From Balanoglossus misakiensis (taxonomy: Eukaryota; Animalia; Hemichordata), in the NCBI GenBank assembly GCA_040954595.2, contig CM082578.2, positions 89,640 to 153,639 of the forward strand: a stretch of 64,000 bases of DNA. Reading direction: 5' to 3'. Under the pieces are notes generated by a model. That model searched no databases and was not told where the DNA came from. It saw only the letters and a list, made by a program, of their open reading frames with translations. Shown here in pieces: positions 41,851-64,000 of the stretch. How positions within the stretch are numbered: position 1 is the first letter of the stretch; each line of letters opens with the position of its first letter. The translations under genes and the position numbers were made by a program.

Positions 41851-42785
41851 GTAAGTGTGTCTGCCATGTGAAGAGACCTTCAGCATAATGCACTGCAGTA
41901 CAGTTCTGCATGTGATTCATTGCAGGTTACTTGTCATAACTCTGCTCTGACAGAGCTTATCAGATAAGACAATTGTTCATAGGTTGTCTGTCATGTGTCA
42001 ACACAAGTGTTCTGTTAAATAACTAGTGCAAATGTGTTTAAATTTTATATGCATGTTTGGCCTTAGTATAGTTTTTGGAAATTGTGAAATTTGGGTATAT
42101 AATTAAACCCTCTTAGTATCCAAGTGTCCAATTGCCTTGAAATGTACAGTCACTATGTGTAAATACAACAAATGCCATAATTTGAGTGGGAAATTTTTGC
42201 TGAGCTAAATTTCTTTAATCACGTCCTGTGTGAAAAAAATGTCTATAGTTTTGTTTGAGAATGGCACATGCTGTCTTACTACTTTGACTTTATTCTATGT
42301 GCATGAAGTCAACATATGTTGGAATAGTTTCTACAGAAATGTCTACTTGTCTTACCCAGATTGCAAACAAATATTTCAAAAAGGTAAATGAGAAGAAAGT
42401 GTGATCGGCTGAATCTATGAATCTCAAACTTGGCACAATTATGTGGGCCTATGTAATTTCATGCATAACACTCTTGAATTTTTAATTACTCACTGTAATT
42501 GTCAGCTTTGATTGGAATTTTCATATGGACCTTATTTATATTAAAATGTGGAATAAAAAATCTGTTGACAGTCCTTGTACACTACATGTACCGGTATATG
42601 GTCAGGATCCCACATGCCAAATTTCAAGGTTGTGGACCATGTCAACAGGTTTATCCGTGACCTTGACCTACCCATAGGCCTATACCTCTACAGTGAAGCT
42701 ATCACCACATTTTATTCTGGCATTCTGGTCTGTACAATAGTCCCGGACATTAAAATGTTAACAGTTATGTATTTATTGATTTCAG

Positions 42786-45700
42786 ATGCCACGCTCTAGG
42801 AACTGGAGGAAGAAGAGGAGTCAGATGAAAGAGGATGCTGCCCTCTCAAAAAACAGCTTCGATATGACAGAGGATGCTGCCCTCTCAAAAAACAGCTTCG
42901 ATATGACAGAGGATGCTGCCCTCTCAAAAAACAGCTTCGATATGACAGAGGATGCTGCCCTCTCAAAAAACAGCGACGTAATCAAAGAGGATGCTGCCCT
43001 CTATAATCTCAGCGACAATACCCTTCGGGGTGCCAGCCTTCGGTGTTCGAAGGATCAAAACTGTGAAACTTCCCTTCGGGGTTCAAACCTTCGGTGTTCG
43101 AAGGGTGAAAACTTTGAAACTTCCCTTCGGGGAACCAATGATTCTAGGGTACCTGCAAATGGTGACATTGTCACTTGTGTTAATGGAAATTTACAGATTG
43201 AGAAAGCAGTTGATATTGCACACAAGAGAAATGACAATGAATGTATTATTCAGAATGTTACCCCGAATGAATTTGTTTTCTCTCCTGTAACCACCACCAT
43301 ATGCCAAGAGTTATGCTGTAAGCTTCACATAAAATATGGAAATAAAGTTGAAATGCTCGATGAAATTCGTAGTGTTGAAATTGGTGAACCATGCAATATG
43401 AAGTCTATTATCGGTGATGGTAATTGTTTGTTTAGAGCTTTGTCGTATGCCATTAGTGGCAGTGAACGTAACCATGCTGTAATGCGACAGGCCATTGTAA
43501 ACCACATGATTGCAAATGACAGTGCATATTTTGGTTGGCTGGACCAAGACCAAGGATATACATCAGTTGCTGATTATATTGCAAAGTCTAGAATGAATTG
43601 CCTAACAATCTGGGGTTCCGAAAATGAGATCTTGGCCGCTGCCGATCTCTTACAAACTGACATCTATGTGTATAGTTCTGGAATATGGCTAAGACATTAT
43701 TGTAATGCAATTAATAAAAGTAATGTTGATAAAGGTGTAGGTATATACCTGAACCATCGCAACAGAGATCATTTTGAAATTGTCAAGAGTGTAAAGACAC
43801 GTGAGATGGTAACATCTGACTATACACACATTGAATGTGATGAACTTGTCTCAAGTGAAGGTATGACTAATGAATTCCACAATGAGGCAGATAGTGGCAG
43901 TTGTGTTCCACTAAAGAGTCCATTGGACAAGAAAGGAAATTTCCACTTAAGTGATGAAACTGAAAGTGTTACAAAAGGAAGAGGTAAGAGACCAGCAATG
44001 AGTGAACGATTACGAAAGAAAATCAGAAAACAAAAATATGAATGTAATGAGACCACTGCAAAGAGCTGCAGGGCAATATCTGAATCAGAATTGTACCACA
44101 GTAATTCTCAATATAGAGAGACAAAGAAGTTAAAAAGTAGACAGCATTATCATCAGATCCGAGAAAGTAAGAAACAAAAAATGAAAGATTTATATGAACA
44201 AAATGCCGACTATCGGGACGCCAAAAAGACACAGTCCAGGGTTAAATATGAACAAAATCCTGATTTTCGGGAAGCACAGAAGGCACGCATAAGAGTAAAT
44301 TACGAACAAAATCCTGATTTTCGGGAAGCACAGAAGGCACGCGTAAGAGTAAAATATGAACAAAATGCTGACTTTCGGGAAGCACATAAAGCACAAATGT
44401 CCCAACAAGTATCCCAAAAATATCACCAAGACGTAAACTTTCGTGAATCAAAGAAGACACAGAGTATTCAACGATATGAGAATGACCCTCATTACAAAGA
44501 TAATGCATTGAAGAGAAGCAGGTGTCAGATGATACAGAATGACATTGATAAGCAAAATGTTCAACATGTTATTGCTAATTTTAGAAATACTGCCTCAGAA
44601 GGTCCAAATTGTGTATGTTCAGTTTGTCATCGTCGACTTTTCAGGAAACAAGTAATTGTTTGCAACAAGGATAAATATTACAGTAACAGAATTACATCTG
44701 ATATTGCTGTGAAATGTATATCAGAAGAATATGTTCACAAATGTGCCTCGACATGTATGGCTGACTGCCCTCTCAAGAATAATGCAGCCAGTAAATTGTG
44801 GATTTGTTTCACATGCCATAGAAAACTTTTACGTGGAGAGATGCCAGTTCAAGCTGTTGCAAACAACCTTCATGTCACATCAGTCCCTCCTGAATTGAAA
44901 TGCCTCAACTCACTTGAGCAACATTTAATTGCATTAAATATTCCATTCATGAAAATGTTGGCATTACCTAAGGGTGGTCAGAATGGAGTTCATGGACCTG
45001 TAGTGTGTGTCCCTTCTGATATAAAGAAGGCTACAAATATTTTGCCACGGAATGAGTTTGATGATCAGATGATAAGGGTGAAATTGAAGCGAAAACTGAG
45101 TTATAAAGGTTACTATGAATATCAGTTTGTAAACAAACGACACATTCAGAATGCTTTGGAATACCTACAGACAAATAATCAGTATTACAGTGATATAACA
45201 TTCAATATGAATTGGAAAAATACTCTTGAAAAGACTGAAGAAGTTATTTCAGATGCTGAAAGCAAATCAGAAAAGTCTAACACCAAAAGCAATGATGAAA
45301 ACAATGAAAAGACCAAAGGAAATGTTTCAGATACTGAAAGTAATGATGTGTCATCAGACACAGAAGATAACAATGTGTCCAACAAAGATACTAATGGAAT
45401 ATTGATGGACACATGCCTCCAACCAATTGACATAGGTCAGGATATTCTTGATTATCACTTTGAGGATATATCTTGTGTTGCTCCAGCAGAGGGTAATAAA
45501 CCTGTTTGTCTGTTGATGGAAAAGTTGAATGAAGCTAAGTGCTTTCCTGTGCTATTCCCAACTGGGTCACCCACATTTCACGATGACCGAGAGGTTAGGA
45601 TAACAATAGGACGATACCTGCAAGGTCGTGTAATGAATGCAAGTAACAGATTTTCAAAAAGCACAGACTATATCTTTTATGCGCAATATCTGTCTGAAAT

Positions 45701-48700
45701 TAACCAGGTTGTATCCAATGTGTCAATTGCTTTGAGGAAAGGAACTGCTAATGCTTGTGGCAAAAAAGTGACATCGGATGTTTTAAGTGACAGTGAATCT
45801 TTGAAACAGATTTTGAAGTCTGATGAAGGCTATAAGTTTTTAAAACCTATAAGAGGAACTCCTCCTTATTGGCAAGCAACACAAAAAGACCTGTTTGCAA
45901 TGATCAGACAGTTGGGTATACCAACATGGTTTTGCTCATTTTCTGCTGCCGATTTACGGTGGAAAGAAGTTATTGAGACTATACTTCGTGGAGAAGGAGA
46001 TGTACGTAATGCTGAGGATCTTGAATGGTCTGAGAAATGTGCTATCTTGAGACGAAATCCTGTAACAGCAGCCAGAATGTTTGATCACAGATTTCATTGT
46101 TTTCTGAGAGAAGTCATCATGTCACCAGCCAATCCTATTGGAAATATCAAAGATTATTTTTATCGAGTCGAGTTTCAACAACGAGGCTCACCACATACAC
46201 ACTGCCTATTTTGGGTTGAAAATGCACCAAAGGTTGATAGAGATACTGATGAAGATGTAGTTGATTTTGTTGACAGATATGTAACATGTCAAATGCCTTC
46301 TGTTGAGGAGGATGAGGAATTGCAAGAGATTGTGAATAAAGTTCAGAAACACAGCTCAAGGCACTCCAAATCTTGCAAGAAAAAGGGCACTAGATGCAGA
46401 TTCAACTTTCCACGACCACCATCAAAGAAAACGTTCATATGCCGTCCTGATATAGATATAGAAATGACAGGTGAAGGTGAGAAGTCAAACCTTGATGACG
46501 ATAACGCAACACTTGAAGAGAAATGTCAAAGTGACACAACTCAGTTAATTGAGAATGTGATGAGCCAGATGGCTGCTAGGAATATTTTGGAAAAAGTGTG
46601 GACATGCCTGCATGACAAAGAGAAACAGATTGATTCGGTTGATGCACTGTTTAATGAAGTCAGCATTTCTCAGGAGATGTTTGAGAAAGCACATGCAATT
46701 TTAGCAAGAAAGACAAGTGTAGTATTAAAGCGTGAACCAAATGATGTTTGGGTAAACCAATACAATTCTAACCTTCTTCGTTGCTGGGATGCAAACATGG
46801 ACATTCAGTTTGTTGTGGATGCTTATGCCTGTGTTGTGTACATTGTGTCATATATCTCTAAGGCAGAGAGAGAAATGGGTTTACTGCTGGAAAATGCACA
46901 GAGAGAAGCAAACAAAGAGGGAAATGTGGATGCTAAATCTGCACTGAAACAATTAGGCAGTGTTTATCTGCACAACAGAGAAGTAAGTGCTCAAGAGGCT
47001 GTATATAGACTGTGTGGATTGAAACTGAAGCAATCATCTCGAAAAGTCCAGTTCATTCCAACTGGAGAAACCCCTATCAAAATGAGTTTGCCATTGAGTG
47101 TAATACGTAGCAAAATGACAGGAGATGATTTGAATGAGGATGATATCTGGTACAATAGCATTGTAGACAGATACAAGAACAGACCAAATGATGACGAGTT
47201 TGACGACATGTGTCTTGCGACATTTTGTTCAGAATATCGAATAGTGTCAAAATCAGAAGTGACAAATACCACCACTGAGAAACGTGCAAATCCAATAGTG
47301 AAGTTGGAAAATGGTGCAGGTTACATGCAAAAAAGATCTCGAACTGATCCAGCTGTCATTAGATATGCAAGATTTTCTGTGACCAAATTTCCAGAAAAGT
47401 ATTACCGCACTATGTTAGAACTCTTCTTGCCACACTGGGTTGATTCCCAATTGAAACCAAATGGGTTTGAAACATATGAAAATTTCTATTCTGCGGGTGC
47501 AGTGAAGTGTGGATCTGCTTCTATACAAACAGTGAAAGTCATAGTAGATGCAAATAAAGCAATGTTTGAGAAAGAGGCTGATGCCGTTGATTTAGCTGAA
47601 GAGCTCCTTGAAGGAAGTGGTCCTCTGGAGGACGCATGGGCCCAAATCTGTCCAGAAAGTGAAATAGACAGATTAGAATGCATTGATGAACGTCAACAAT
47701 TGCCTGATGATGATGTAAATGAGGAGGATATTCCAGATTTGGTGCACAAACCAAAAGGTGATTGCCACATAGAAATTTCTACCTCTGAAGTAAGGAGGGC
47801 TGATGTTCAAGCAATGTGTAGGTCACTGAACAGGAAACAGGCAGAAGTCTTTTATAATGTCAGACAGTGGTGTCTGGATAAAAGCAATGGCAAGAACCCA
47901 GAATCTTTGTATTTGTTTGTCAGTGGTGGTGCTGGCACAGGGAAAAGCCATTTAATCAAAACCATATATCATGAAGCCAAACGAATTCTATCTCGTGTAA
48001 TGGCTAACCCAGATGAAAAATCAATACAGGTAACAGCCTCAACTGGAGTTGCAGCATTTAATGTAGGAGGTGAAACTCTCCATCATGCATTTTCAATAGC
48101 AGTAGACTCAAAACTACCATATGAGCCACTACGTGAAGAAAAACTCAACACTCTTCGTTCCAAATTGGGAAATCTTCAGATTTTAATAATAGATGAGATT
48201 TCTATGGTAGACAGAAAATTATTTCACTACGTACATGGACGATTACGTCAAATCAAACAAACACCAAGTGGTTCACCATTTGGAAATGTGTGTGTTATTG
48301 CTGTGGGCGACTTTTATCAGCTGCCACCTGTGAAAGCAAGTCCACTGTGTGTGGAAAATGATGCCATCAATATGTGGAATAATTTCAAAATTGTGGAACT
48401 CACTGAAATAATGAGACAAAAGGACTGTGCATTTGCAGAAGCACTAAATAGAGTAAGAATTCACAAGAAAGGGCACACACTGAGTGCAAATGATCTAGAA
48501 ATGTTCAATAACTGTGTGACTGGTGAAGCATCTGAGGCAATTCACATTTTTGCTACAAATGCAGAAGTTAACAATTGCAATATCACAATGCTACATTCCT
48601 TGTGCTCTGATCCTGTATGTATTGAAGCACAAGATTTTAGTAAGAATACTAAGACTGGGAAACTCCAAAGAAAGGAAGGCCATCATGCCAAGGTCTATAG

Positions 48701-49907
48701 GACCACTTTACCAAAGACTCTCACTCTAGCTAAGGGTGCACGAGTGCAACTGACACAAAATATTGATGTCTCTGATGGATTGGTGAATGGTGTATTTGGA
48801 TCAGTATGTCACATTGATGTGAAACCAAATGAAAGCTTTCCAACTGCTGTTTATGTTGTATTTGACAATGTGAAAGTTGGCCAAGGATTGCGAAACAAGA
48901 ACCGTGTAAATATATCTGACCTTCCTGAAAACACCACCCGTATAGAACCTCAGGAAATGTCTGTTGCAAGTAATGGTGGTATTAGGAGACAATTTCCTCT
49001 GAAACTAGCATGGGCATGTACAGTGCATAAGGTACAGGGATTAACAGTTGAAAAAGCTGTTGTCAGTTTAAAGAAGATATTTGCACCAGGACAGGCATAT
49101 GTTGCATTGAGTCGAGTGACATCATTAGATGGGCTAATAATTGATGAATTTAAGACATCTTCTATATATTGCAATGAAAAGGTTCAAGCAGCCTTGGAAA
49201 TGATGCCAAAGTTTGTTGATGGGTGCTTTGAGCAATTACAGCCAAACTATAGATGCTCTTTTATACTTCATAATGTTGAAGGTCTTCTGAACCACATGGA
49301 AGATATTCGTAGTGGCAAGGAATACTTGGAGTCAGACTTTATTTGTTTGACGGAAACATGGCTAACTGAGAACCAGACAAAATGTGATGTGATAGTGAAT
49401 GGATTTGAATTCAGTCACAAGCCTCGGTCAAAATCGTATAACAACTTTGATATGAATACTTCACAGTTGCAGTTGCAACATCATGGTGGTGTTGGCCTCT
49501 ACGTCAAAGGAAGTCAATCTGTTGAAATTTTGGATTTGCCTGTTAGTAACTTGGAATATCTTACATTTTATGTCAAAGACATCAATACGGTGGTAGCAGT
49601 AATTTACAGACCATCATCCTATAAAGCAGTCGCATTCAGGAAAAACCTTCTTCTGTTGGTGAAGGAAATGTCAAAGTATTCAGGTGCTACAGTGATCATG
49701 GGTGATTTCAATGAAAATATTTTAACCTCATCATCTCTTGTGAAACTCATGCAAGACCATGGTTTCAAACAACACGTGAGCAAACCAACCACAGAAGCTG
49801 GTACATTGATTGACCATGTGTATGTGAAAGGAGCAGGAAAGGTGGAAGTTGGCATTGTGCCAAAGTACTTCAGTTTTCATGAAGCCATCAGCATTAAGAT
49901 CTATTGA
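42786..49907 (+). CDS. Helentron RepHel transposase, 2373 aa: OTU cysteine protease, Zn-finger, HUH/Y2 Rep, PIF1-family SF1B helicase, C-terminal AP-like (EEP) endonuclease
   Basis: OTU: GDGNCLFRALS..WG..EI..AA..HFE. Cys cluster: CSVCHR..CFTCHR. Rep: FSAAD, FYRVEFQQRGSPHTH (Helentron-type RGSPH), YIVSYISKAE. Helicase: GGAGTGKS, IIDEISM, GDFYQLPPV, MRQ, QFPLKLAWACTVHKVQGLT, GQAYVALSR. EEP: HNVEGL, LTETWL, YRP, MGDFN, IDHVY, SFH. The frame is uninterrupted. Confidence 0.97.
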   Translation: MPRSRNWRKKRSQMKEDAALSKNSFDMTEDAALSKNSFDMTEDAALSKNSFDMTEDAALSKNSDVIKEDAALYNLSDNTLRGASLRCSKDQNCETSLRGSNLRCSKGENFETSLRGTNDSRVPANGDIVTCVNGNLQIEKAVDIAHKRNDNECIIQNVTPNEFVFSPVTTTICQELCCKLHIKYGNKVEMLDEIRSVEIGEPCNMKSIIGDGNCLFRALSYAISGSERNHAVMRQAIVNHMIANDSAYFGWLDQDQGYTSVADYIAKSRMNCLTIWGSENEILAAADLLQTDIYVYSSGIWLRHYCNAINKSNVDKGVGIYLNHRNRDHFEIVKSVKTREMVTSDYTHIECDELVSSEGMTNEFHNEADSGSCVPLKSPLDKKGNFHLSDETESVTKGRGKRPAMSERLRKKIRKQKYECNETTAKSCRAISESELYHSNSQYRETKKLKSRQHYHQIRESKKQKMKDLYEQNADYRDAKKTQSRVKYEQNPDFREAQKARIRVNYEQNPDFREAQKARVRVKYEQNADFREAHKAQMSQQVSQKYHQDVNFRESKKTQSIQRYENDPHYKDNALKRSRCQMIQNDIDKQNVQHVIANFRNTASEGPNCVCSVCHRRLFRKQVIVCNKDKYYSNRITSDIAVKCISEEYVHKCASTCMADCPLKNNAASKLWICFTCHRKLLRGEMPVQAVANNLHVTSVPPELKCLNSLEQHLIALNIPFMKMLALPKGGQNGVHGPVVCVPSDIKKATNILPRNEFDDQMIRVKLKRKLSYKGYYEYQFVNKRHIQNALEYLQTNNQYYSDITFNMNWKNTLEKTEEVISDAESKSEKSNTKSNDENNEKTKGNVSDTESNDVSSDTEDNNVSNKDTNGILMDTCLQPIDIGQDILDYHFEDISCVAPAEGNKPVCLLMEKLNEAKCFPVLFPTGSPTFHDDREVRITIGRYLQGRVMNASNRFSKSTDYIFYAQYLSEINQVVSNVSIALRKGTANACGKKVTSDVLSDSESLKQILKSDEGYKFLKPIRGTPPYWQATQKDLFAMIRQLGIPTWFCSFSAADLRWKEVIETILRGEGDVRNAEDLEWSEKCAILRRNPVTAARMFDHRFHCFLREVIMSPANPIGNIKDYFYRVEFQQRGSPHTHCLFWVENAPKVDRDTDEDVVDFVDRYVTCQMPSVEEDEELQEIVNKVQKHSSRHSKSCKKKGTRCRFNFPRPPSKKTFICRPDIDIEMTGEGEKSNLDDDNATLEEKCQSDTTQLIENVMSQMAARNILEKVWTCLHDKEKQIDSVDALFNEVSISQEMFEKAHAILARKTSVVLKREPNDVWVNQYNSNLLRCWDANMDIQFVVDAYACVVYIVSYISKAEREMGLLLENAQREANKEGNVDAKSALKQLGSVYLHNREVSAQEAVYRLCGLKLKQSSRKVQFIPTGETPIKMSLPLSVIRSKMTGDDLNEDDIWYNSIVDRYKNRPNDDEFDDMCLATFCSEYRIVSKSEVTNTTTEKRANPIVKLENGAGYMQKRSRTDPAVIRYARFSVTKFPEKYYRTMLELFLPHWVDSQLKPNGFETYENFYSAGAVKCGSASIQTVKVIVDANKAMFEKEADAVDLAEELLEGSGPLEDAWAQICPESEIDRLECIDERQQLPDDDVNEEDIPDLVHKPKGDCHIEISTSEVRRADVQAMCRSLNRKQAEVFYNVRQWCLDKSNGKNPESLYLFVSGGAGTGKSHLIKTIYHEAKRILSRVMANPDEKSIQVTASTGVAAFNVGGETLHHAFSIAVDSKLPYEPLREEKLNTLRSKLGNLQILIIDEISMVDRKLFHYVHGRLRQIKQTPSGSPFGNVCVIAVGDFYQLPPVKASPLCVENDAINMWNNFKIVELTEIMRQKDCAFAEALNRVRIHKKGHTLSANDLEMFNNCVTGEASEAIHIFATNAEVNNCNITMLHSLCSDPVCIEAQDFSKNTKTGKLQRKEGHHAKVYRTTLPKTLTLAKGARVQLTQNIDVSDGLVNGVFGSVCHIDVKPNESFPTAVYVVFDNVKVGQGLRNKNRVNISDLPENTTRIEPQEMSVASNGGIRRQFPLKLAWACTVHKVQGLTVEKAVVSLKKIFAPGQAYVALSRVTSLDGLIIDEFKTSSIYCNEKVQAALEMMPKFVDGCFEQLQPNYRCSFILHNVEGLLNHMEDIRSGKEYLESDFICLTETWLTENQTKCDVIVNGFEFSHKPRSKSYNNFDMNTSQLQLQHHGGVGLYVKGSQSVEILDLPVSNLEYLTFYVKDINTVVAVIYRPSSYKAVAFRKNLLLLVKEMSKYSGATVIMGDFNENILTSSSLVKLMQDHGFKQHVSKPTTEAGTLIDHVYVKGAGKVEVGIVPKYFSFHEAISIKIY
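42831..43135 (+). repeat. Coding minisatellites at the RepHel N-terminus: 39-bp (x~4.5) then 51-bp (x~2.3)
   Basis: GAGGATGCTGCCCTCT at 42831, 42870, 42909, 42948 and 42987 (EDAALSKNSFDMT). CCCTTCGGGG at 43021, 43072 and 43123. Confidence 0.9.
44193..44490 (+). repeat. Coding 54-bp (18-aa) charged repeat YEQNxDFREAxKxxxRVK
   Basis: TA(T/C)GAACAAAAT at 44193, 44247, 44301 and 44355, plus degenerate copies. Confidence 0.88.
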
Positions 49908-49939
49908 AAGACTCATTGTAATATCTACAATGTTCAACC

Positions 49940-50341
49940 AAACATGGTGATCTGAGAAGCAAATTTAATACAAGTGAGGTACCAGTGAATGGATTGAAAT
50001 TCAATCACCAGCCTCTGTGCAAATCATTAATACGGTGGTAGCAGTAATTTAAGACCACCATCATATAAAGCAGAGGTGTTCAGGAAAAACTTACTTCTGT
50101 TGATGAAAGGAAATGTAAATGTATCCAGGTGCTTCAGTGATCATGGGTGACATCAATGAAAATATTTAAATCATCTCTTGTCAATGTAATGCAAGACCTT
50201 GGTTTCAAGCAACATTTGAGCAATCTAACTACAGAAGCTTGTACATTGATTGACCATGTGTATGTGAAAGGAACAGAAAATATTGGAGTTGAAATACTGC
50301 CAAAGTACTTCAGTTTTCATTAAGCCATCAGCATTAACATC
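49940..50341 (+). pseudogene. Decayed tandem duplicate of the endonuclease-coding 3' end of RepHel
   Basis: GTGAATGGATT..AATACGGTGGTAGCAGTAATTTA..GTGATCATGGGTGA..GTACATTGATTGACCATGTGTATGTGAAAGGA..CCAAAGTACTTCAGTTTTCAT parallels ~49354-49901, with a ~145-bp deletion, indels and stops. Confidence 0.92.
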
Positions 50342-50491
50342 ATTAAGGCATTATGCATATAGTAATTAAAACCCGTGTTACATACAACTGGTATTGGGGA
50401 GGGATAATGGGGTTTGAGACTTACGGGTCCCCATTTGGGAATTGTTGGGGTGGGGGTGGGGGGTTGTAAACAAATTAATATGTTACTCTTA

Positions 50492-51773
50492 GGTTACCCT
50501 GGTGCTAATTATCACATTTGATATCAAGCTGTTACTGTTTTTGTGTGATGGGAGACTAGTATTTGATTGTCTATCATTTCAGAGCCAGTTGTTTGACATG
50601 GCTGCAGTGATTTCATTGAAATGACATGTTCACATGCAATCATTTACATGGATCATAATTATAGTGACATGATATTATCATGTTGCAGGTCATTGTGCAC
50701 ACATACCTGCTTATTGATGTATATTAAAGCACACCAATTTATAACGTGCTACAAAAAAGAAGTCAGTGGTGGCCGTTTATGATTTCTGATGCATGACATG
50801 ACTTTTATGTGACTATACCCAAAATATTATGGGTGTGACCATGTTGTTGTGATGTTATCCATTAAATGCACCTGACTGTCAGTTCTTGATGATTTTATTT
50901 ATTTCAGTACTGTCAATTGAGATATGTATTTCATCTGATTTCATCAAAACTCACAGTTTTAGTCCTACATGAATGTATGTCATAATTCCAACCTGACACT
51001 TTGTCACTGTAATTAACAGACAATATATGATATCAAAAGTGTGAGTAATAACAGTCCCAATAGCCTTGTTTGCATTACTGCTTACACAGTGTTCTCCACA
51101 GGATTTTGGGAAAGTTAGTTGGATATAATGGTCCATAACAATTTAATCATTATGTTAGTGATATTGCTTTCTCAAAATTTAAGAATAAGAGTGGTAGCCA
51201 CCATGCTTTAATTGTTCTTTGGAGAACACTGTGCTGGTATATTTCACCCATCATCTGATCCTATATGTATACAGACAACAACATTTGGAATATGTGCAGA
51301 TTCCAATATCCATGTGCATTCTAGAATGAATGTGTACTCGTACAATGCGGGACTGCAGAATAGATGGATGTAGCATCAGTCTGTTAATGATTCAAGTTAG
51401 TCATATTTATTATGCAGCCTTAATCAGAGGTTCACACTATATTTTATGTAAATACCCATCAGTAAGGTTTATTTAAAGAAACCATTGTACGTGTCAAGTT
51501 AATAATGAGAAATTTGCCAAAATTGCCAAAAATATAGTAAGGCTTGAATGAAAGATTTCAATCATGTACCAAAGCATTTTCATTCTGTTGACAATGAAAT
51601 GGAAGTTGGTAAATGATGCATTGGAAATTCAGTAGGAAGAAGGTTAATTTAAGTATGATTACACAACTGAATATTTCTAATTGATGTTTTATTACACTGT
51701 ATGTAAAGTACCATTGGGGTAAATGTGTAAAACATTGATTTATAATTGGGAAAACATTAGCACCAGGGTAGCC
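50492..51773. mobile_element. Candidate non-autonomous TIR element (~1.28 kb), TA-flanked
   Basis: TAGGTTACCCTGGTGCTAAT (50490-50509) vs ATTAGCACCAGGGTAGCCTA (51756-51775): 19/20 inverted match. Confidence 0.55.
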
Positions 51774-53589
51774 TAGGTTTATCAATGTTCAATTCCATTT
51801 TGTAAATGTTTAAAATATATTTTTGTCTATTTTCACTATGTTATGTACAGAATGACTACATATTACCACTGTCTACTTTTGTGTCTCTAAGGCTGTCATG
51901 AATGGCTTAATACACTGAAGTTAAAATCATTATTTAGACATTTGTGAAGCGATTTTAATAACCTGTCTGAAGTATAGTACCGTATGGTGTTTTATAGAAT
52001 AAAACAAAAACCAATGTCCCCATATGACGTTTGCTTTCAGAAAACAATACAAATTGCCCATCCGAGACTTAATTTTTAGGGGTACACGCACCAAGAAAAC
52101 ATCCTATGAATGGCAATCCCAAAATTATCCTTGATATCTGGTATTCAGACTTGTATTCTGTGAATCATCATTGCTATATATGTACTAACAACATGCTATA
52201 ACTGCAGTAGCAATAATTGAACCAGTGTGAATAAATCAAACACTGTACACTGAAATATCTCACTATCGCTTTAATCGCAAACATTTAGTATGAGCTTGGT
52301 TATTGACAGATCCAAAGTAACCCACCAACACTGACACTATAAGTTTTGCATCACGGGCGTGTCATTAATTATTTACTTTTTATGTCATATTTTATTTGTT
52401 AGAGAAATACCAAACGTAGTAGACAAGGACATCAACTTTCATAAAATGTGTTCCTATTAGTACTACAGTATAAATATCTGAATTATTTCAAAAATAGTCA
52501 CAGCATTTATTGGAAGAACTTATGTAACTGTATTCATACCTTGATGTTTAAATTATTGTCATTGGTTTATGTTTTATTCCATATGCTATTATTGTCAATA
52601 GGTGATTTATATGTTCACGTGACCTGCACTGACCCATACATATACTTAGAATACCAAATGTATTGGGAGACAGGTGTGTTCAATAATTATGGCTTTAACA
52701 TTCATGTAACACTATCCCTAGTAAGTATACAGATCTTAGTGGTCTTGTTTGTTAGAGAGGTAACAATGGGCTACGTTAATGATAGCCACACTCGAATCAG
52801 ATAAAGAATTGTTTTCCAGAAGATGTCACCTGTTTTCATCAAACCATGATTTACTTTTCTAGTGCCAGGCGATGATTTGATAAGTTGAACAGTTTCCAGA
52901 AGGACCATTGTAGTGCACTGACATCAGCATAATGATTTCATAAGATTTCATGGAAGTTTGAATGACTGGGTTCTTCCCATTTGCATATTGATATGTTCAC
53001 ACCTGGTATTTACTACTTAGGTGAAGTTGATGATGGTGTCTGATGAACTTAAGTGCAAACAATAGAAATTTTAATACACAGTTCAAGCAGGTCAATCAGT
53101 TCTGGCTACCTTTATGTGGAAATTTTCAGTTGACTTTCGCAACTCACTGGGAGTGCCTACAAGACTGAACTCTACTTGTTTTCTGTGTCACTCCAATCTA
53201 TTCACTACTACACGACCAGTTCAGCAAAACTAGGAACAGTTCACTCTTCAGCAAATCCATTATACAGGGGATGCCACTTCAGCAACATTGCAATCTGTGT
53301 AGACCTACCAACCTGTTGTATTCATCACATTCGCGCATCCAGCTAGTCCTATGCACCTCTGAGAATCTCTATATTAAGAATATATATGCCTGTACATATA
53401 TAGAGTGTCTACTGTGTAGACACTGGAGGAATATTTTATACTACGGTAATTATTGTACTTGTAAGCTTTGTGTGTATTGGTGTCATGTATTTATATATAT
53501 TTTTCTGTGGGCCTGGAGCCTGATTCAAATCAACCCAAACAATACAAAAAGGAAAAATAAATAACTGATTTATTTTTTGAGTCAAAGTG

Positions 53590-55116
53590 TAAGACTTCAT
53601 TAGGTGTTCAATGCCTCCAATTGCCGAAGCTGTATCTGCTGTGGATGCCAAGATATGTGAAAGTAAGTCAAAGGTCAGCAAAGGTCACCCGAAATTTTAC
53701 TGGTCCATATCCAGCAAAAAACGTACCTCTACCTACTATTTAGCCTTTAATTAGATATGTGCGAATTAATGAGGTCAGGTGTAAGACTCCATTAGGTGTT
53801 CAATCCCTCCAAATGCCAAGGCTGTATGTGCTCTGGATGCTGTGATATGAGAAAGAAGGTCAAAAGTCTCCTGAGGTAACCAGCAAATACCAAGGCTGTA
53901 TCTGCTGTGGATACCGAGATATCGGAAAGTAGGTCAAACGTCACATCAGGTGAGCCAAAATTTGGTCTTAAAATTTTTACCACAGAATGGTCTATGTCCA
54001 ACAAAAACTAAACCTCCAACCCGATTGGTTAGCTTGGAATTAGATATGCAGAAAAATGATGTATCGGAAATAGGCCCAACAAAAACCAGACCCCAAGCTC
54101 TATTGGTTCGCCTAGAATTAGGTATGTGCTTAATTAATGAGGTCTTGTGTAAGACTCCATATGTGCTCCATCGGCCCCCCAAAAGCCAGGACTCTAACTG
54201 CTGTGGATGCTGAGATATGGGAAAGTACATCAAAGGTCATCCAAGGTCACCCAAAATTTGAGCCTAAAATTTTGACCCCAGAGTGGGCCATGTCCAACTA
54301 AAACCAGACCTCTAGCCCTATTGGTTAGCCTGGAATTAGATATGCAGAAAAATGATGTTTCAGAAAAAGGTCAAGGGTCATTGCCAAAATTACCAAAATA
54401 TTTGTGTCATGTCCTGGCAGCATTGGTACCCATGTCCACAAAATTCATGACTGTGGTGCTTTGACAAGAGGAGGTATGGGGAATATGCATATATAATTAG
54501 TTGTTTTAAAACTGGGTCAAAGGTCATGTGAAAATTGCCCCAAAAAATTGTGACAACTTCCGGTCATATGATGACTCATATCCAAAAAAAGAATTTCCGT
54601 GCTGTCAACATTTTGGCTACAAAACGGAATTTTCATTTTTCGATTGTTTTCCGAAAATCCAACATGGCCGCCATAATGATCGACCAATCACAATGTGCTT
54701 CGCAAACTTGATAGACATAGGTTAGGTGACCAGATACCCCGAATCCCGTGACTAGGCCATTGCTGGTTCTGGAGAAGAAGATTTTTAAAGTTTTAAGTAG
54801 TTTTTCAGAAAAGAAATTGTAGCAAAAAAACTTTATGTATGACGTCATGATTTTAATGGGGTAAAATGATGGACAGAAGGTAGGCTACCTGCACACCAAA
54901 TTTGAACTTGATCCGCCCAGTAGTTTTTGAGAAGGACTCATTTAACGATTTTCAGGAAATCCAATATGGCCGCCAGGTCACGTGACTAATTAAATATTCA
55001 CAAGCCACTGCACGTCTACTCATTGGCCCCTATCACCCTACCGATTTTCAGCCCCCTAGGTGCTGCGGTTTTCCAGATCTACCTGGCCGATTATTTGCAG
55101 AAGAAGAATAATAATA
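53590..55116. repeat. Helentron subterminal degenerate repeats shared with its left end and with the nested HINEs
   Basis: GCCAAGGCTGTATCTGCTGTGGATGC..AGGTCAAAGGTCA..AATTAATGAGG..GTGTAAGACTCCAT occurs at 38137-38330 and repeatedly in 53590-54300. AATCCAA(T/C)ATGGCCGCC and GTCACGTGAC occur in 54650-54990. Confidence 0.85.
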
Positions 55117-58100
55117 AATTAAAGCTGCAAGCAGCATTGTCCGGGCCCAAGCTTTATTATCTGATCTGATTATTAGATATGCACATAATTAATGAGTAGA
55201 AACATAATGCTGTGTTTTAGCAAATGAAATATCAAGGTTATATCTATGTTTGGTGCTGATATAGTGTTAAGTAGGTCAAAGGTCATCCAGAGGTCACCCA
55301 CAATTTGGGCAGAAAATTTTGACCCATAGTGGTCCATGTCCATCAAAAACCAGACCTCTAGCCCTTTTGGTTAGCCCGGAATTAGGTATGCACATAAATA
55401 ATGCATAAAGCAGGTGTCACAGGTGAGCCAAAACTTTGGCTTTTCATTATGGCCCCATACCTCCAAATGCCCAGACTGTACCTGCTTTGGATGTCGAGAT
55501 ATGCAAAAATAGGTCAAAGGTCATCTGAGGTCACCCAAAATTTGGGCAGAAAATTTTGACCCAAAGTAGTCCATGTCCAACAAAAACCAGACCTCTAGCC
55601 CTTTTGGTTAGCCCGGAATTAGGTATGCACATAAATAATGAGTTAAGCAGGTGTCACAGGTGACCCAAAACTTTGGCTTTTCATTATGGCCCCATACCTC
55701 CAAACGCCAAGGCTGTATCTGCTGTGGATGTCGAGATATGCAAAAGTAGGTCAAAGGTCACCCGAGGTCATCCAACATTTGGGCAAAATATTTTGACCCC
55801 ATACTGATCCATGTCCAGAAAAAAACAAACCTCTAGGTCATTTGGTTCATCTGTAATTAGGTATGCGCATATTTAATGAGGTCAGCAGAGGTCAAAGGGG
55901 TCATGAAAAGTAGCAAAAATTTTTGATCACATACATAACCACATACATCAAAAACCAAACTTATAGCCCTATTGGTTAGCCTGGAATTAGATATGCAGAA
56001 AAATGATGCGTCAAAAGTAGGTCAAAGGTCATTGCCAAAATTACCAAAATATTTATAGCTTATTCTTGTCATATGATGATTCATATCCATTAAACGAATT
56101 TCTGTGCTATCAATTTTTAGGCTAGAAACAGAATTTTTACTTTTTAATCGTTGTTCACAAAATCCAATATGGCCGCCAAAATCTTCGACCAATCACAATG
56201 ATCTTCGCAAACTTGATAGACATCTGTTTAATGACCACACACACCAAATCTTGTGACTCGGTTATCGCCGGTTCTTGAGAAGAAGATTTTTGAAATTTTA
56301 CTAGGGTTTTTCGAAAATCCAATATGGCCGCCATAATCTTCGACCAATCACAATGATCTTCGCAAACTTGATAGACCTCAGTTTGGTGACCACATACCCC
56401 AAACCGCGTGACTCGGTTATCGCCGGTTCTGGAGAAGAAGATTTTTGAAATTTTGACCAGATTTCAGAAAAACAACTGTAGCAAAAAAACTGCAACATTG
56501 ACAGCAAAATATCCAATTACAAAAATGATGGGTAGAAGGTAGACTACCTGCACACCAAGTTTGAAGTCGATCTGACTTGTAGTTTCTGAGATCTGAGATT
56601 TGCATTTTTTCAGAAAATCTAATATGGCCGCCAGGTCACGTGACTAATTAAAAATTCAAGGGTTCAATGCACATCTACTCATTGACCTTGACCACTGTAG
56701 CAAGTTTGAGAAGTGTACCTGCAGTGGTGTCTGAGATCTAGAGCGACAAAGAATTGACACAAGAATAAAGAAAGAAGAAGAAAGAAGAAAGAAGGAAAGA
56801 CAGAATTAAAGCTGCAAGCAGCATTGTCCGGGCCCAAGCTCTATTATCTGATCTGATTATTAGATATGCACATAATTAATGAATAGAAACATAATGCTGT
56901 GTTTTATCCCAAGAAATATCAAGGTTATATCTATGTTTGGTGCTGATATAGTGTTAAGTAGGTCAAAGGTTACCCAGGGGTCACCCACAATTTGAGGAGA
57001 ATATTTTGACCCATAGTGGTCCATGTCCAATAAAAACCAGACCTCTAGCCCTTTTGGTTAGCCTGGAATTAGGTATGTACATAAATAACGAGTTAAGCAG
57101 GTGTCACAGGTGACCCAAAACATTGGCTTTTCATTATGGCCCCATATCTCCAAATGCCAAGGCTGTACCTGCTTTGGATGCCGAGATATGCAAAAGTAGG
57201 TCAAAGGTCATCTGAGGTCACCCAAAATTTGGGCAGAAAATGTTTACCCATAGTGGTCCATGTCCAATAAAAACCAGACCTCTAGCTCTATTGGTTCACC
57301 TGTAATTAGTTATGCACATAATTAATGAGGTCAGCAGAGGTCACAGGTGACCCAAAACTTTGGCTTTTCATTATGGCCCCATATCTGCAAATGCCAAGGC
57401 TGTACCTGCTTTGGATGCCGAGATATGCAAAAGTAGGTCAAAGGTCACCGGAGGTCACCCAACATTTGGGCAAAATATTTTGACCCCATACTGATCCATG
57501 TCCAAAAAACCCCAAACCTTTAGGTCTATTGGTTAATCTGTAAATAGGTATGCGCATATTTAATGAGGTCACCAGAGGTCAAAGGGGTCATGAAAAGTAG
57601 CAAAATTTTTTGATCACATACAAATCCACATACATCAAAAACCAAACTTATAGCCCTATTGGTTAGCCTGGAATTAGATATGCAGAAAAATGATTCGTCA
57701 AAAGTAGGTCAAAGGTCATTGCCAAAATTACCAAAATATTTATAGCTTATTCTTGTCATATGATGATTCATATCCATAAAAAGAATTTCTGTGCTATCAA
57801 TTTTTAGGCTAGAAAAGGAATTTTTACTTTTTAATCGTTTTTCACAAAATCCAATATGGCCGCCATAATCTTCGACCAATCACATTCCCCTTCGCAAACT
57901 TGATAGACATCTGTTTAATGATCACACACACCAAATCTTGTGACTCGGTTATCGCCAGTTCTGGAGAAGAAGATTTTTGAAGTTTTACTATGGTTTTTCG
58001 AAAATCCAATATGGCCGCCATAATCTTCGACCAATCACAATGATCTTCGCAAACTTGATAGACATCTGTTAGGTGACCACATACCCCAAACGGCGTGACT

Positions 58101-58590
58101 CGGTTATCGCCGGTTCTGGAGAAGAAGATTTTTGAAATTTAAGCCAGATTTCAGAAAAAAAATTGTAGCAAAAAAACTGCAACATTGTCAGCATAATTTC
58201 CAATTACAAAAATGATAGGCAGAAGGTAGTCTACCAGCATGCCAAATTTGAAGTTGATCTGACTTGTAGTTTCTGAGATCTGAGATTTGCATTTTTTTAG
58301 AAAATCCAAGATGGCCGCCAGGTCACGTGACTAATTAAAAATTCACAGGTTCAATGCACGACTACTCATTGACCTTGACCACTGTAGCAAGTTTCAGAAG
58401 TGTACCTGCAGCGGTGTCTGAGATCTAGAGCGACAAAGAATTGACACAAGAATAAAGAAAGAAAGAAGAAAGAAGGAAAGACAGAAAAACCCCAACGAAA
58501 CCAATAGGGCCCAAGCGCTGGTATGCGCTTGGGCCCTAAAAACCCCAACGAAACCAATAGGGCCCAAGCGCTGGTATGCGCTTGGGCCCT
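55117..58590. mobile_element. Non-autonomous Helentron (HINE) copy B: 55117-56803 + 58538-58590 = 1740 bp
   Basis: Left end AATTAAAGCTGCAAGCAGCATTGTCCGGGCCCAAGC. Right-end hairpin TAGGGCCCAAGCGC-TGGTAT-GCGCTTGGGCCCTA (58558-58591). Internal 237-bp and ~155-bp tandem repeats and a (GAA/GAAA)n microsatellite. Confidence 0.9.
56804..58537. mobile_element. Non-autonomous Helentron (HINE) copy C, 1734 bp, nested in copy B
   Basis: Same termini as B (hairpin 58505-58538). Excising it restores GACAG|AAAAACCCCAACG, identical to the uninterrupted site in C itself (58480-58497). Confidence 0.9.
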
Positions 58591-58613
58591 AAGAAAAATT
58601 CCAACAATACCAA

Positions 58614-58650
58614 TGGGGGCACAAGCCGCCTGAGGGCGCTTGTGCCCCCA
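58614..58650. other. Helentron terminal hairpin, 13-bp stem
   Basis: TGGGGGCACAAGC-CGCCTGAGGGC-GCTTGTGCCCCCA. Confidence 0.92.
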
Positions 58651-61600
58651 ATAAATTCTTTTCTTAGATTCAAACGGGTAGGGATACTTTCCACACGGGT
58701 TTTCTAACATTGAATTCCCGTTCATCAACTCAGATTTCCTACAGCATAAGTCGGCTAAAACCCTGACACTCTAGAGCAGAAACAGTTGCACACTGGTAAC
58801 GTTGAACAAGTCGATTTTTCTACGACCTGGCTCGGCTAAATCTCCGTCACAATATGACAGACACTAGCGTACGTTAGCAACGGTGATCAAGTCAGATTTT
58901 CTACGGCATGGCTTGGATAAAGCCCCGGCACTCTAGAGCAAAAACACGCGTACAGAGACCACGTTGATCAAGTCTGATCTCCTACGGCTTGGCTCGACTA
59001 AAACCCCGGCACACTATGACAGACACTAGCGTTCGTTAGCAACGTTGATCAAGTCAGATTTCCTACGGCATGGCTTTGCTAAAGCCCTGACACTCTAGAG
59101 CAGAAACACGCGTACAGAGACCACGTTGATCTACTCACATTTCCTTCGGCCTGGCACGGCTGATGCCCCGGCACTATATATAGGACACAGACTGGCGTAA
59201 GTTAACAACGGTAATCACGTCGGGTTTCCTACGGCCTGGCTCAGCTGAAGCCCCGGCACTCTAGAGCAGAAACAGGCGTACATTGACCACGTTGATCAAG
59301 TCAGATTTCCTACGGCGTGACTCGGCTGGTGCACCGGCTCTATATGACACAGACTGGCGTAAGTTATCAACGGTGATTACGTCGGATTTCCTACGGCCTG
59401 GTTTAGCTGAAGCCCCGGCACTTTAGAGCGGAAACACGCGTACATTGACCACGATGATCAAGTCAGATCTCCTACGGCCTGGCTCGACTAAAACCCCGGC
59501 ACACCATGACAGACACTAGCGTTCGTTAGCAACGGTGATCAAGTCGGATTTCCTTCGGCCTGGCTCTGCAAAAGACCCGACACTCTAGTACAAAGACGTT
59601 GGCTAAGTCGGGCAAACCGAACAGGGAAAGTCACAGCGGGTCAACACTCGACATTTGTTCCGGTAGGACTGCTTTATTGCCTGTCAATTTATAGAGAAAG
59701 CCCGAATTTAACCAGGGCGTTTCAAACACCGACGTTAGTTGGGGGCACGGCCTGCAGTACTGCCGGGTAAGCTGACATCGGCGTACCGCATATAATGTAG
59801 GGGGGGGGGGGGACAGAACGGTTCAATACTACATTTATTAGATATCAGCTAGTTTTGGACAATCATCTAAAATCTAAATCATTTTTTCATATTTGGATAT
59901 CTGATGATGTATGAAATTTCCATTATATGTAAAAATGGTGCTGATTATAAAAAATGCACTCTGAATGAGCTGATTTAATACAAAATTGCGTTTTATTCGT
60001 TTTTGCACCAAAAAGGTCATTTTTAGGCAAAACATTCTTTATTTTTTTAATTCGGTGACCTGATCATATATAAGCAATTGCTTGCATGTTAAAAGTTTTT
60101 ATGACTTTTAAAAGCAGTGACACTGGCGGCATTCAACACGAAAATAACAATTTTAACCACAATTTGGTCAAAATGGTAAATTTTTGAAAATTACAAAAAA
60201 TACCTGTTTTCTACATTTTCGGAAATCTGATGGAGTATAGAATGCTCTTCGTATATATATATCGATACCAATTCCACAAAAGACCGTCTAATTTGGCTCA
60301 CTGCAGACAAAATTGCGTTTTACCAAATTTTCCTTGAAAATGTCATTTTTAGAAAAATAAAATAAAAAAACCTTCGTTCTTCGAACTTGGTGCCCTGATC
60401 ATATATGACATGTTGATTGTATGTTAAAACTTTCGACCACTCCAAAAATGCAGAGATATTGACGGAATTCAAGAAAAAATAGCCATTTTGGCCATATTTT
60501 GACAAAATGGTACATTTTTAAAAAATCATAAAAAATATAACTCTTTTCTTCATTTTCGGAAATATTATGGAGCATGAAGTGTCGTTCTCTTGTAAAAAGT
60601 GCTGCAAATTCCAGAAAATGTTGTATAATTTGAATCACCCAAGACAAAATTACCATTTTCGACTTGTTTTCGAAAAATTGTCTTTTTTACAAAATAAATA
60701 AGAATAAATTCTTTTCTTAGTTTCAAACGGGTAGAGATACTTTCCACACGGGTTTTCTAACATTGAATTCCCGTTCATCAACTCAGATTTCCTACAGCAT
60801 AAGTCGGCTAAAACCCTGACACTCTAGAGCAGAAACAGTTGCACACTGATAACGTTGAACAAGTCGATTTTTCTACGGCCTGGCTCGGCTAAATCTCGTC
60901 ACAATATGACAGACACTAGCGTACGTTAGCAACGGTGATCAAGTCAGATTTTCAACGGCATGGGTTGGATAAAGCCCCGGCACTCTAGAGCAGAAACACG
61001 CGTACAGAGACCACGTTGATCAAGTCTGATCTCCTACGGCTTGGCTCGAATAAAACCCCGGCACACTATGACAGACACTAGCGTTCGTTAGCAACGTTGA
61101 TCAAGTCAGATTTCCTACGGCATGGCTTTGCTAAAGCCCTGACACTCTAGAGCAGAAACACGCGTACAGAGACCACGTTGATCTACTCACATTTCCATCG
61201 GCCTGGCACGGCTGATGCCCCGGCACTATATATAGGACACAGACTGGCGTAAGTTAACAACGGTGATTACGTAGGATTTCCTACGGCCTGGTTTAGCTGA
61301 AGCCCCGGCACTTTAGAGCGGAAACACGCGTACATTGACCACGTTGATCAAGTCAGATTTCCTTCGGCGTGACTCGGCTGGTGCACCGGCTCTATATGAC
61401 ACAGACTGGCGTAAGTTATCAACGGTGATTACGTCGGATTTCCTACGGCCTGGTTTAGCTGAAGCCCCGGCACTTTAGAGCGGAAACACGCGTACATTGA
61501 CCACGATGATCAAGTCAGATCTCCTACGGCCTGGCTCGACTAAAACCCCGGCACACCATGACAGACACTAGCGTTCGTTAGCAACGGTGATCAAGTCGGA

Positions 61601-64000
61601 TTTCCTTCGGCCTGGCTCTGCAAAAGACCCGACACTCTAGTACAAAGACGTTGGCTAAGTCGGGCAAACCGAAGAGGGAAAGTCACAGCGGGTCAACACT
61701 CGACATTTGGTCGGGTAGGACTGCATTATTGCCTGTCAATTTATAGAGAAAGCCCGAATTTAACCAGGGCGTTCCAAACACCGACGTTAGTTGGGGGCAC
61801 GGCCTGCAGTACTGCCGGGTAAGCTGACATCGGCGTACCGCATATAATGTAAGGGGGGGGGGGGACAGAACGGTTCAATACTACATTTATTAGATATCAG
61901 CTAATTTTGGACAATCATCTAAAATCTAAATCATTTTTTCATATTTGGATATCTGATGATGTATGAAATTTCCATTATATGTAAAAATGGTGCTTATTAT
62001 AAAACATGCACTCTGAATGAACTGATTTAATACAAGATTGCGTTTTATTCGTTTTTGCACCAAAAAGGTCATTTTTAGGCAAAACATTCTTTATATTTTT
62101 AATTCGGTGACCTGATCATATATAAACAATTGCTTGTATGTTAAAAGTTTTTATGACTTTTAAAAGCAGTGACACTGGCGGCATTCATCACGAAAATAAC
62201 AATTTTAGCCACAATTTGGTCAAAATGGTAAATTTTTGAAAATTACAAAAAATACCTGTTTTCTACATTTTCGGAAATCTGATGGAGTATAGAATGCTCT
62301 TCGTATGTACATATCGATACAAATTCCACAAAAGACCGTCTAATTTGGCTCACTGCAGACAAAATTGCGTTTTTACCAAATTTTCCTTGAAAATGTCATT
62401 TTTAGAAAAAAAAATAAAAAAACCTTTGTTCTTCGAATTTGGTGCCCTGATCATATATGACATGTTGATTGTATGTTAAAACTCTCGACCACTCCAAAAA
62501 TGCAGAGATATTGACGGAATTCAAGAAAAATAGCCATTTTGGCCATATTTTGACAAAAATGGTAAATTTTTGAAAAATCATAAAAAATTAACTCTTTTCT
62601 TCATTTTCGGAAATATTATGGAGCATGAAGTGTCGTTCTCTTGCAAAAAGTGCTGCAAATTCCAGAAAAGGCGGTATAATTTGAATCACCCAAGACAAAA
62701 TTACCATTTTCAACTTTTTTTTCGAAAAATTGTCTTTTTTTACAAAATAAATAAGAATAAATTCTTTTCTTAGTTTCAAACGGGTAGAGATACTTTCCAC
62801 ACGGGTTTTCTAACATTGAATTCCCGTTCATCAACTCAGATTTCCTACAGCATAAGTCGGCTAAAACCCTGACACTCTAGAGCAGAAACAGTTGCACACT
62901 GGTAACGTTGAACAAGTCGATTTTTCTACGACCTGGCTCGGCTAAATCTCCGTCACAATATGACAGACACTAGCGTACGTTAGCAACGGTGATCAAGTCA
63001 GATTTTCTACGGCATGGCTTGGATAAAGCCCCGGCACTCTAGAGCAGAAACACGCGTACAGAGACCACGTTGATCAAGTCTGATCTCCTACGGCTTGGCT
63101 CGACTAAAACCCCGGCACACTATGACAGACACTAGCGTTCGTTAGCAACTTTGATCAAGTCAGATTTCCTACGGCATGGCTTAACTAAAGCCCTGGCACT
63201 CTAGAGCAGAAACACGCGTACAGAGACCACGTTGATCTTCTCACATTTCCTTCGGCCTGGCACGGCTGATGCCCCGGCACTATATATAGGACACAGACTG
63301 GCGTAAGTTAACAACGGTAATCACGTCGGGTTTTCTTACGGCCTGGCTCAGCTGAAGCCCCGGCACTCTAGAGCAGAAACAGGCGTACATTGACCACGTT
63401 GATCAAGTCAGATTTCCTACGGCGTGACTCGGCTGGTGCACCGGCTCTATATGACACATACTGGCGTAAGTTATCAACGGTGATTACGTCGGATTTCCTA
63501 CGGCCTGGTTTAGCTGAAGCCCCGGCACTTTAGAGCGGAAACACGCGTACATTGACCACGATGATCAAGTCAGATCTCCTACGGCCTGGCTCGACTAAAA
63601 CCCCGGCACACCATGACAGACACTAGCGTTCGTTAGCAACGGTGATCAAGTCGGATTTCCTTCGGCCTGGCTCTGTAAAAGACCCGACACTCTAGTACAA
63701 AGACGTTGGCTAAGTCGGGCAAACCGAACAGGGAAAGTCACAGCGGGTCAACACTCGACATTTGTTCCGGTAGGACTGCATTATTGCCTGTCAATTTATA
63801 GAGAAAGCCCGAATTTAACCAGGGCGTTTCAAACACCGACGTTAGTTGGGGGCACGGCCTGCAGTACTGCCGGGTAAGCTGACATCAGCGTACCGCATAT
63901 AATGTAGGGGGGGGGGACAGAACGGTTAAATACTACATTTATCAGATATCAGCTAATTTTGGACAATCATCTAAAATGTAAATCATCTTTTCATATTTGG
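58650..64000. repeat. Continuation of the ~2.05-kb tandem array (~2.6 units, runs off window)
   Basis: Resumes in register at AATAAATTCTTTTCTTAG. Poly-G at ~59800, 61853 and 63907. Confidence 0.98.

What the first reader, a model, noticed from the sequence alone, without database searches (positions are those of the whole stretch)
55100..58650. Russian-doll Helentron nesting: each new element lands 53-59 bp inside the hairpin end of the previous one
Seen: three left ends (38078, 55117, 56804) share AATTAAAGCTGCAAGCAGC, and three hairpin ends are stacked within 150 bp (58505-38, 58558-91, 58614-50). B sits 59 bp from the end of the autonomous element and C sits 53 bp from the end of B. Both lie in the same orientation, in the A-rich microsatellite beside the hairpin, with no TSD. 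Inference: the family carries its own landing pad next to the transposase-bound terminus, giving self-targeted 'safe-harbour' insertion. The satellite target (AAATAAG|AATAAA) is a similar A/G-rich run. B and C differ at many positions, arguing against a simple recent tandem duplication.
Basis: partly seen in the sequence, partly recalled or inferred. Interest (0 to 1): 0.85.

Follow-up and report, generated by a model that had tools for sequence, protein, structure and literature searches.

The report
Jumping genes nested behind own hairpin
Two small non-coding rolling-circle transposons sit one inside the other within the end of a full-length relative, each 53-59 bases from its host's hairpin end, likely because every copy carries there the A/T-rich run that the family prefers as a target; self-insertion of this kind was already proposed for fungal relatives.

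Summary
Helentron A (intact 2,375-aa RepHel-OTU-endonuclease frame) interrupts a 2-kb satellite. Non-coding HINE B lies 59 bp inside A's hairpin end, and HINE C lies 53 bp inside B's. All face one way, each adds two A's, and excising each restores an intact site. B and C are 93.6% identical throughout, and the order (three tails, then three heads) excludes a head-to-tail concatemer.

The 'own landing pad' idea is supported. A target profile from 49 dispersed insertions of related elements in other animals ranks the tract beside the hairpin 1st of 56 tiles in B and 1st-5th of 568 in A, on that strand only. The 'transposase-bound end' idea is not needed: A's satellite site has no family hairpin nearby yet ranks 5th of 4,178, and host (TAA)n repeats are also strongly targeted. 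In four double ends the offset is 20-26 nt from the hairpin's inner foot, but 53-97 from the terminus. 'Safe harbour' is untested.

Self-insertion near the 5' end is already proposed for Fusarium Helitron2 elements. This scan noted like nests in seven other pieces of this genome and three other genomes (unchecked notes).

The parts
6320..38079 (+). Tandem array of a ~2.05-kb satellite unit (81-bp subrepeats), left of the insertion
   Evidence: units 95-99% identical; 17 empty sites listed
38080..58651 (-). Element A, full-length Helentron (HLE2), outer shell of the nest; canonical 5' end (hairpin 'head') on the right
   Evidence: flanks rejoin to an intact satellite site plus two A's
38080..38114 (-). 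A 3' tail: short stem-loop (38085-38096) and subterminal inverted repeat (38103-38114)
   Evidence: 12 of 12 match to the reverse complement of A's terminal hairpin arm
42780..49907 (+). Open frame of 2,375 aa: OTU, DUF6570, Rep (Helitron_like_N), PIF1 helicase, AP endonuclease; antisense to the canonical end orientation
   Evidence: Helentron-type motif 2 (FYR ... GSPHTH)
55099..55118 (+). A's GAA/TAA tract; B is inserted at its hairpin-side edge
   Evidence: uninterrupted form seen as loose ends of 4 contigs in run X1
55119..56805 (-). Element B, non-autonomous HINE: tail, 237-bp and 155-bp internal repeats, microsatellite (56761-56803)
56806..58539 (-). Element C, complete 1.73-kb HINE, innermost; microsatellite 58447-58485, head hairpin 58505-58538
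58540..58592 (-). Displaced head of B (53 bp; hairpin 58558-58591)
   Evidence: rejoins B's body to give the same sequence as intact C
58593..58651 (-). Displaced head of A (59 bp; hairpin 58614-58650)
   Evidence: inverted repeat matches A's tail, not B's or C's
58652..64000 (+). Satellite array resumes in register

Best explanation
A Helentron and two non-coding HINE relatives form a three-deep nest, most likely built by successive single-strand insertions at a TT site whose preferred T-rich context every copy carries just inside its own 5' hairpin. Shown: the nest, the exact empty sites, the enzyme's domains, and that the tract beside the hairpin is the best or near-best match in B and A to the family's dispersed target profile, on one strand only. 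Inferred: a RepHel enzyme (A's or a sister's) cuts the T-rich strand and joins the incoming circle there. This fixes the orientation, places the joint at the hairpin-side edge of the tract (20-26 nt from the hairpin's foot), and brings in a fresh tract with each new copy, so stacks can grow. Whether C entered B here, or a B+C composite moved in as one piece, is not resolved.
For: Order tail-tail-tail / head-head-head, with A's inverted repeat matching only the outer head. B's break point coincides with the boundary of the 53-bp repeat, as nesting predicts. B/C differ by 6.4% throughout. Target profile from 49 dispersed ends: AA directly before the tail in 41 of 49, 61% A in the last 15 nt. The hairpin-side 60-bp tract ranks 1 of 56 in B and 1-5 of 568 in A under six model variants, holds 12-58% (B) and 2-9% (A) of the predicted weight, and about 0 on the other strand. 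A's satellite site ranks 5 of 4,178. Short-read contigs of this organism hold head-to-head joints with other A-run lengths, and B-type heads joined to A-type heads 3 bases further along, in 3-6 contigs per run at summed depths of 2,900-18,500. Related elements in other animals show double heads (L028, L089) and tails inserted beside a resident hairpin (L113, L111). TT/T-rich targeting and a microsatellite beside the 5' inverted repeat are published HINE traits.
Against: The profile alone gives only 2-9% for B hitting that tract in A and 2-7% for C hitting it in A+B, so sequence may not be the whole story. C's exact site scores only 55th of 3,454 in B, B's 155th of 34,172 in A; the model lacks the head-side half of the target. 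The profile comes from other species' families that share only the tail. The target tile was placed after seeing the site, while the other tiles were on a fixed grid. No listed contig met the tool's 31-bases-each-side rule for bridging; the runs are one sample, possibly the source of the window, and depth is not copy number. No genome was held for a genome-wide count.
Confidence: 0.68

Rival explanations
1. Hairpin-guided targeting: RepHel bound at, or unwinding from, a resident copy's 5' hairpin captures the incoming element and inserts it at the first TT about 20-26 nt inside the hairpin's foot.
For: Spacing from the hairpin foot is 20, 23, 26 and 23 nt in the window, L028 and L089 although the hairpins differ in length. 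All 4 element-in-element joints among relatives lie within about 110 bp of a head, none mid-body. L111 is beside the hairpin in the opposite orientation. The sequence profile leaves the joint event at well under 1% (product of the figures).
Against: The spacer between tract and hairpin is itself conserved, so constant spacing is also expected from sequence alone. A's satellite site has no family hairpin nearby, and one contig shows a B/C-type head at that same site (X1 only, side 23). 49 of 60 related ends are dispersed.
Confidence: 0.22
2. Fewer insertions than it seems: B+C came as one composite, or a double-headed C (local duplication of its 53-bp end) lies next to a headless B from tandem rolling-circle copying.
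For: The B and C heads are identical over 53 bp (3% chance at 6.4% divergence). Double heads followed by a tail exist in L028 and L089. Double-headed chimeras transpose in Fusarium.
Against: A headless B would have to break exactly at the boundary of the duplicated unit. B and C differ at 111 sites, unlike rolling-circle copies. The ends are conserved at both sides (2 differences in the first 100 columns). A composite still needs a C-into-B insertion at this site somewhere.
Confidence: 0.08
3. Assembly artefact in a repeat-rich region.
For: The locus lies in a satellite, and no listed contig spans the whole stretch.
Against: B and C are 6.4% divergent, all three junctions restore exact empty sites, and head-to-head joints occur in independently assembled short-read contigs.
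Confidence: 0.02

Closest known systems
Helentrons and HINE/DINE-1 elements (Thomas, Vadnagara and Pritham 2014, PMC4067079; passages; oyster Cg_HINE, PMC7492417; passages)
   Same: RepHel plus C-terminal endonuclease and OTU, motif-2 signature, 12-bp subterminal inverted repeats, 3' stem-loop, microsatellite beside the 5' repeat, central tandem repeats, TT/T-rich targets, variable T number, some frames reversed.
   Different: The passages read mention clustering of related insertions but not insertion into the element's own microsatellite or bracket-matched nests. Supplements were not read.
FoHeli Helitron2 elements of Fusarium oxysporum with multiple 5' termini (PMC5148889; passages and section 10; PMC13342296; passages)
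   Same: Stacked short 5' ends (31-85 nt repeats; up to five termini) attributed to self-insertion near the 5' end; one non-autonomous copy nested in an autonomous one; three Metarhizium copies read as possibly inserted twice into a 5' end.
   Different: Fungal, different target (TNAT context); the nest is mostly inferred from chimeras there. Here both ends of all three copies survive, and the site is tied to an internal tract.
Helitron2 / HLE2 (Bao and Jurka 2013, PMC3627910; passages; HELIANO, PMC11417382; passages)
   Same: 5' hairpin that includes the inverted repeat, 3' repeat plus hairpin, insertion after TTTT or between T and T, DUF6570 marker, reversed frames in some; Xenopus HelenXT233 has two left termini in direct repeat.
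   Different: No mechanism for the doubled terminus is given in the passages read.
Paramecium Helitrons in telomeric repeats (PMC13085455; passages)
   Same: Strand-specific insertion into a simple repeat proposed to explain a fixed orientation.
   Different: Separate clade; the target repeat belongs to the host, not to the element.

Membership tests
Helentron (HLE2), element A | Rep + PIF1 helicase with C-terminal AP endonuclease | tested here: met
   Pfam PF14214, PF05970, PF03372 in one frame
Helentron (HLE2), element A | Motif-2 signature (F/Y-x-R before the motif; S in G-S-P-H-x-H) and DUF6570 | tested here: met
   FYR-VEFQQRGSPHTH (criterion); PF20209 (marker)
Helentron (HLE2), element A | Falls in the HLE2 clade of a RepHel tree | not tested
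   no tree built
Helitron2/HINE ends (A, B, C) | Asymmetric 11-15 bp subterminal inverted repeats, 5' hairpin, short 3' stem-loop | tested here: met
   A 12 of 12; B and C 10 of 12; folds
Helitron2/HINE ends (A, B, C) | Insertion at TT in T-rich DNA without a longer target duplication | tested here: met
   two extra A's only, at all three sites; a 2-bp duplication is not excluded
HINE (B, C) | Non-coding, microsatellite beside the 5' repeat, central tandem repeats | tested here: met
   no open frame above 134 aa there; 237-bp and 155-bp repeats
HINE (B, C) | Ends shared with an autonomous partner | tested here: inconclusive
   19-bp tail shared with A, but the inverted repeat differs and bodies are 69-90% alike: a sister element may be the partner
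Self-inserting Helitron2 (FoHeli type) | Multiple 5' termini, each under 200 bp | tested here: met
   three heads within 150 bp; double heads in L028 and L089
Self-inserting Helitron2 (FoHeli type) | Multi-headed chimeras transpose to new sites; circular intermediates | not testable with these tools
   no genome held; contigs too short
Canonical Helitron (HLE1) | 5'-TC, CTRR-3' ends, insertion between A and T | tested here: not met
   ends and targets

The most novel reading that the evidence does not exclude
The microsatellite that HINE/DINE-1 elements keep beside their 5' hairpin is a self-carried target: hairpin and tract together steer RepHel to insert about 20-26 nt inside resident copies. 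This is a conserved habit of animal Helentrons that builds last-in-first-out stacks, multi-headed chimeras and satellite-like arrays.
Probability: 0.3. Interest if true: 0.7.

Novelty: new member of a known kind. Interest (0 to 1): 0.42.

Why it matters
It shows intact the intermediate that was inferred for Fusarium elements with several 5' ends, and offers a reason for the microsatellite long noted beside the 5' end of DINE-1/HINE elements. No Helentron target-choice mechanism was found in the papers read. An intact frame plus a defined natural target (tract, spacer, hairpin) makes it testable whether sequence or the bound end guides insertion. Such nests also mislead annotation, since they look like satellites or tandem duplications.

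Tried and rejected
No whole genome is held, so no genome-wide count was possible. The tail pattern in viral contigs gave 2 hits, both without the inverted repeat, read as chance. L008 was left out of the profile as unclear. Laying contigs on C could not show the left joints because the microsatellite region was skipped. Run X3 holds only a small share of the stretch and was not used as evidence. Rfam found nothing in 33900-64000. A sequence look-up in earlier findings returned nothing. Paper searches for the tail motif, for self-targeting wording and for nesting near ends gave no description of insertion into the element's own microsatellite; the library lacks most subscription papers and no supplements were read. 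A 3-bp AAT duplication fits A only, not B or C, and was rejected. A head-to-tail concatemer or circle recombination gives alternating heads and tails, which is not seen here, although 8 of 60 related ends are head-to-tail.

Full report
Observation. The shared 19-base end occurs at 38078, 55117 and 56804 only. Three hairpins are stacked at 58505-58538, 58558-58591 and 58614-58650. The outer element A interrupts one unit of a 2.05-kb satellite whose units are 95-99% identical; 17 empty sites are in the window. Removing C from B, B from A, and A from the satellite restores the intact sequence each time, with two A's left over. For A's tract the uninterrupted form also appears as loose ends of 4 contigs in run X1. 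B and C align end to end at 93.6% with 111 scattered substitutions; their last 53 bases are identical.

What the elements are. A holds one frame of 2,375 aa with OTU, DUF6570, Rep, PIF1 and endonuclease domains and the Helentron motif-2 signature (criterion from passages of PMC4067079). By the Helitron2 scheme (passages of PMC3627910) the large hairpin that contains the inverted repeat is the 5' end ('head') and the short stem-loop is the 3' end ('tail'). The elements therefore read on the minus strand and A's frame is reversed, as reported for some families. B and C are non-coding HINEs of a sister subfamily: they share the tail, differ in the inverted repeat, and match A only in patches of 69-90%. 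A's repeat pairs only with the outermost head, so A's brackets match; B's and C's heads cannot be told apart.

Is it nesting? Head-to-tail copying or recombination with a circle would alternate heads and tails; the window has three tails, then three heads. A headless B beside a double-headed C needs B's break to fall exactly on the boundary of the repeated 53 bases, which nesting gives automatically. An assembly duplication does not fit 6.4% divergence. Three public runs of one sample, possibly the window's source, hold this DNA as short contigs. They show a very abundant family, head-to-head joints with an extra A (3 contigs in X1, 5 in X2; summed depth 16,233 of 314,561 and 18,450 of 112,989), and B-type heads joined to A-type heads three bases further along (6 and 5 contigs; 7,451 and 2,947). 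These differ from the window's joints, which suggests recurrence elsewhere in the genome. The depths are not copy numbers, and no listed contig reaches 31 bases on both sides of a joint.

Why that site? A scan of metagenome assemblies for the tail gave 117 loci; 59 (60 ends) are related animal HINEs and 58 were dropped as unrelated. Of the 60 ends, 49 are dispersed, 8 are head-to-tail (some may be one collapsed joint), 1 is unclear, 1 lies in another copy's microsatellite in the same orientation (L113), and 1 lies at the inner foot of another copy's hairpin in the opposite orientation (L111). Two of the head-to-tail loci carry double heads 59 and 97 bp apart (L028, L089). The dispersed ends define a one-sided, strand-specific target: AA directly before the tail in 41 of 49 and 61% A over 15 bases; 4 of 49 follow three or more TAA units, against 4 of 9,610 background AA sites. 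With this outside profile, the 60 bases beside the hairpin rank 1 of 56 tiles in B and 1-5 of 568 in A under six variants, with and without the microsatellite flanks, and carry almost no weight on the other strand. A's site in the satellite ranks 5 of 4,178 with no family end nearby, and one contig in X1 shows a B/C-type head at the same satellite site. So the element does carry its own preferred target, which accounts for the shared orientation, but the same preference works without a hairpin. Against a purely sequence-based account: the tract holds only 2-9% of A's weight and 2-7% of the weight of A+B, the exact sites rank 55 of 3,454 and 155 of 34,172, and the joint lies 20, 23, 26 and 23 bases from the hairpin's inner foot in four double ends. 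The missing head-side half of the target (TTTT before the 5' end) and the conserved spacer may account for this; that is not tested.

Mechanism. Shown: nest, empty sites, enzyme domains, match of the tract to the target profile. Inferred by analogy with Helraiser, where one strand is cut and joined through circles with precise end junctions (passages of PMC5876387): the enzyme cuts the T-rich strand at TT and joins in the circle; the new copy brings a new tract, so the site renews itself. PMC4067079 proposes that the endonuclease makes the target nick; this is untested. If copying starts at the outer head and stops at the first tail, as in the Fusarium model, nesting would yield multi-headed small elements and would hinder A, so 'safe harbour' may hold for the animal's genes but not for the host element.

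What is known. Multiple 5' termini from self-insertion are proposed for Fusarium FoHeli (PMC5148889, passages and section 10; PMC13342296, passages), and a doubled left end is described in a Xenopus HLE2 (PMC11417382, passages). T-rich targets and the microsatellite beside the 5' repeat are standard HINE traits. Seven searches found no statement that the microsatellite is the self-insertion target; supplements and most subscription papers were not seen. Earlier notes of this scan report like nests in seven other pieces of this genome and in three other genomes; these are unchecked and are not counted as evidence.

Verdict. A real, clean, shallow example of self-nesting in an ordinary Helentron family. 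Interest 0.42: the habit is known in outline, but the intact intermediate, the outside test of the landing pad and the intact enzyme make target choice testable.

Noticed in passing
window 1-2647 and 3306-5926: Inverted duplication (98.5%) of a Pao/BEL retrotransposon fragment; both arms have long open frames with A17 peptidase and weak RT hits.
   Followed up: partly
window 6320-38079 and 58652-64000: 2.05-kb satellite with about 10.7 copies of an 81-bp subrepeat (higher order 162) and a degenerate ~330-bp repeat; no Rfam match in the part scanned.
   Followed up: partly
window 50025-50341: Inverted copy (85%) of the last 320 bases of A's frame (49580-49901), just downstream of it.
   Followed up: no
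window 39830-39924 and 40808-41530: A 95-bp near-perfect palindrome and a 720-bp stretch with 38-bp inverted ends (MITE-like) inside A.
   Followed up: no
window 58537 to 58650 (joint in run X1): One contig joins a B/C-type head directly to the satellite flank at A's site: the satellite site may be a recurrent target (depth 331, side 23, not in X2).
   Followed up: no
L003, L022, L028, L079, L089, L094, L095, L115: Precise head-to-tail joints with exactly two A's between head and tail in related elements of other animals: tandem copies, circles or collapsed repeats.
   Followed up: partly
L079:543-662: Closest outside relative of the window's ends, with the same microsatellite-spacer-hairpin layout (83% over 71 bases); the 17-base tail is shared exactly by all 60 related ends.
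   Followed up: partly
L117 and L020: Complete mini-elements of only about 120 and 185 bp with both ends; L117 sits in a host (TAA)n run.
   Followed up: no
window 42825-43132 and 44243-44394: In-frame tandem repeats (39, 51 and 54 bp) within the N-terminal part of the RepHel frame.
   Followed up: no
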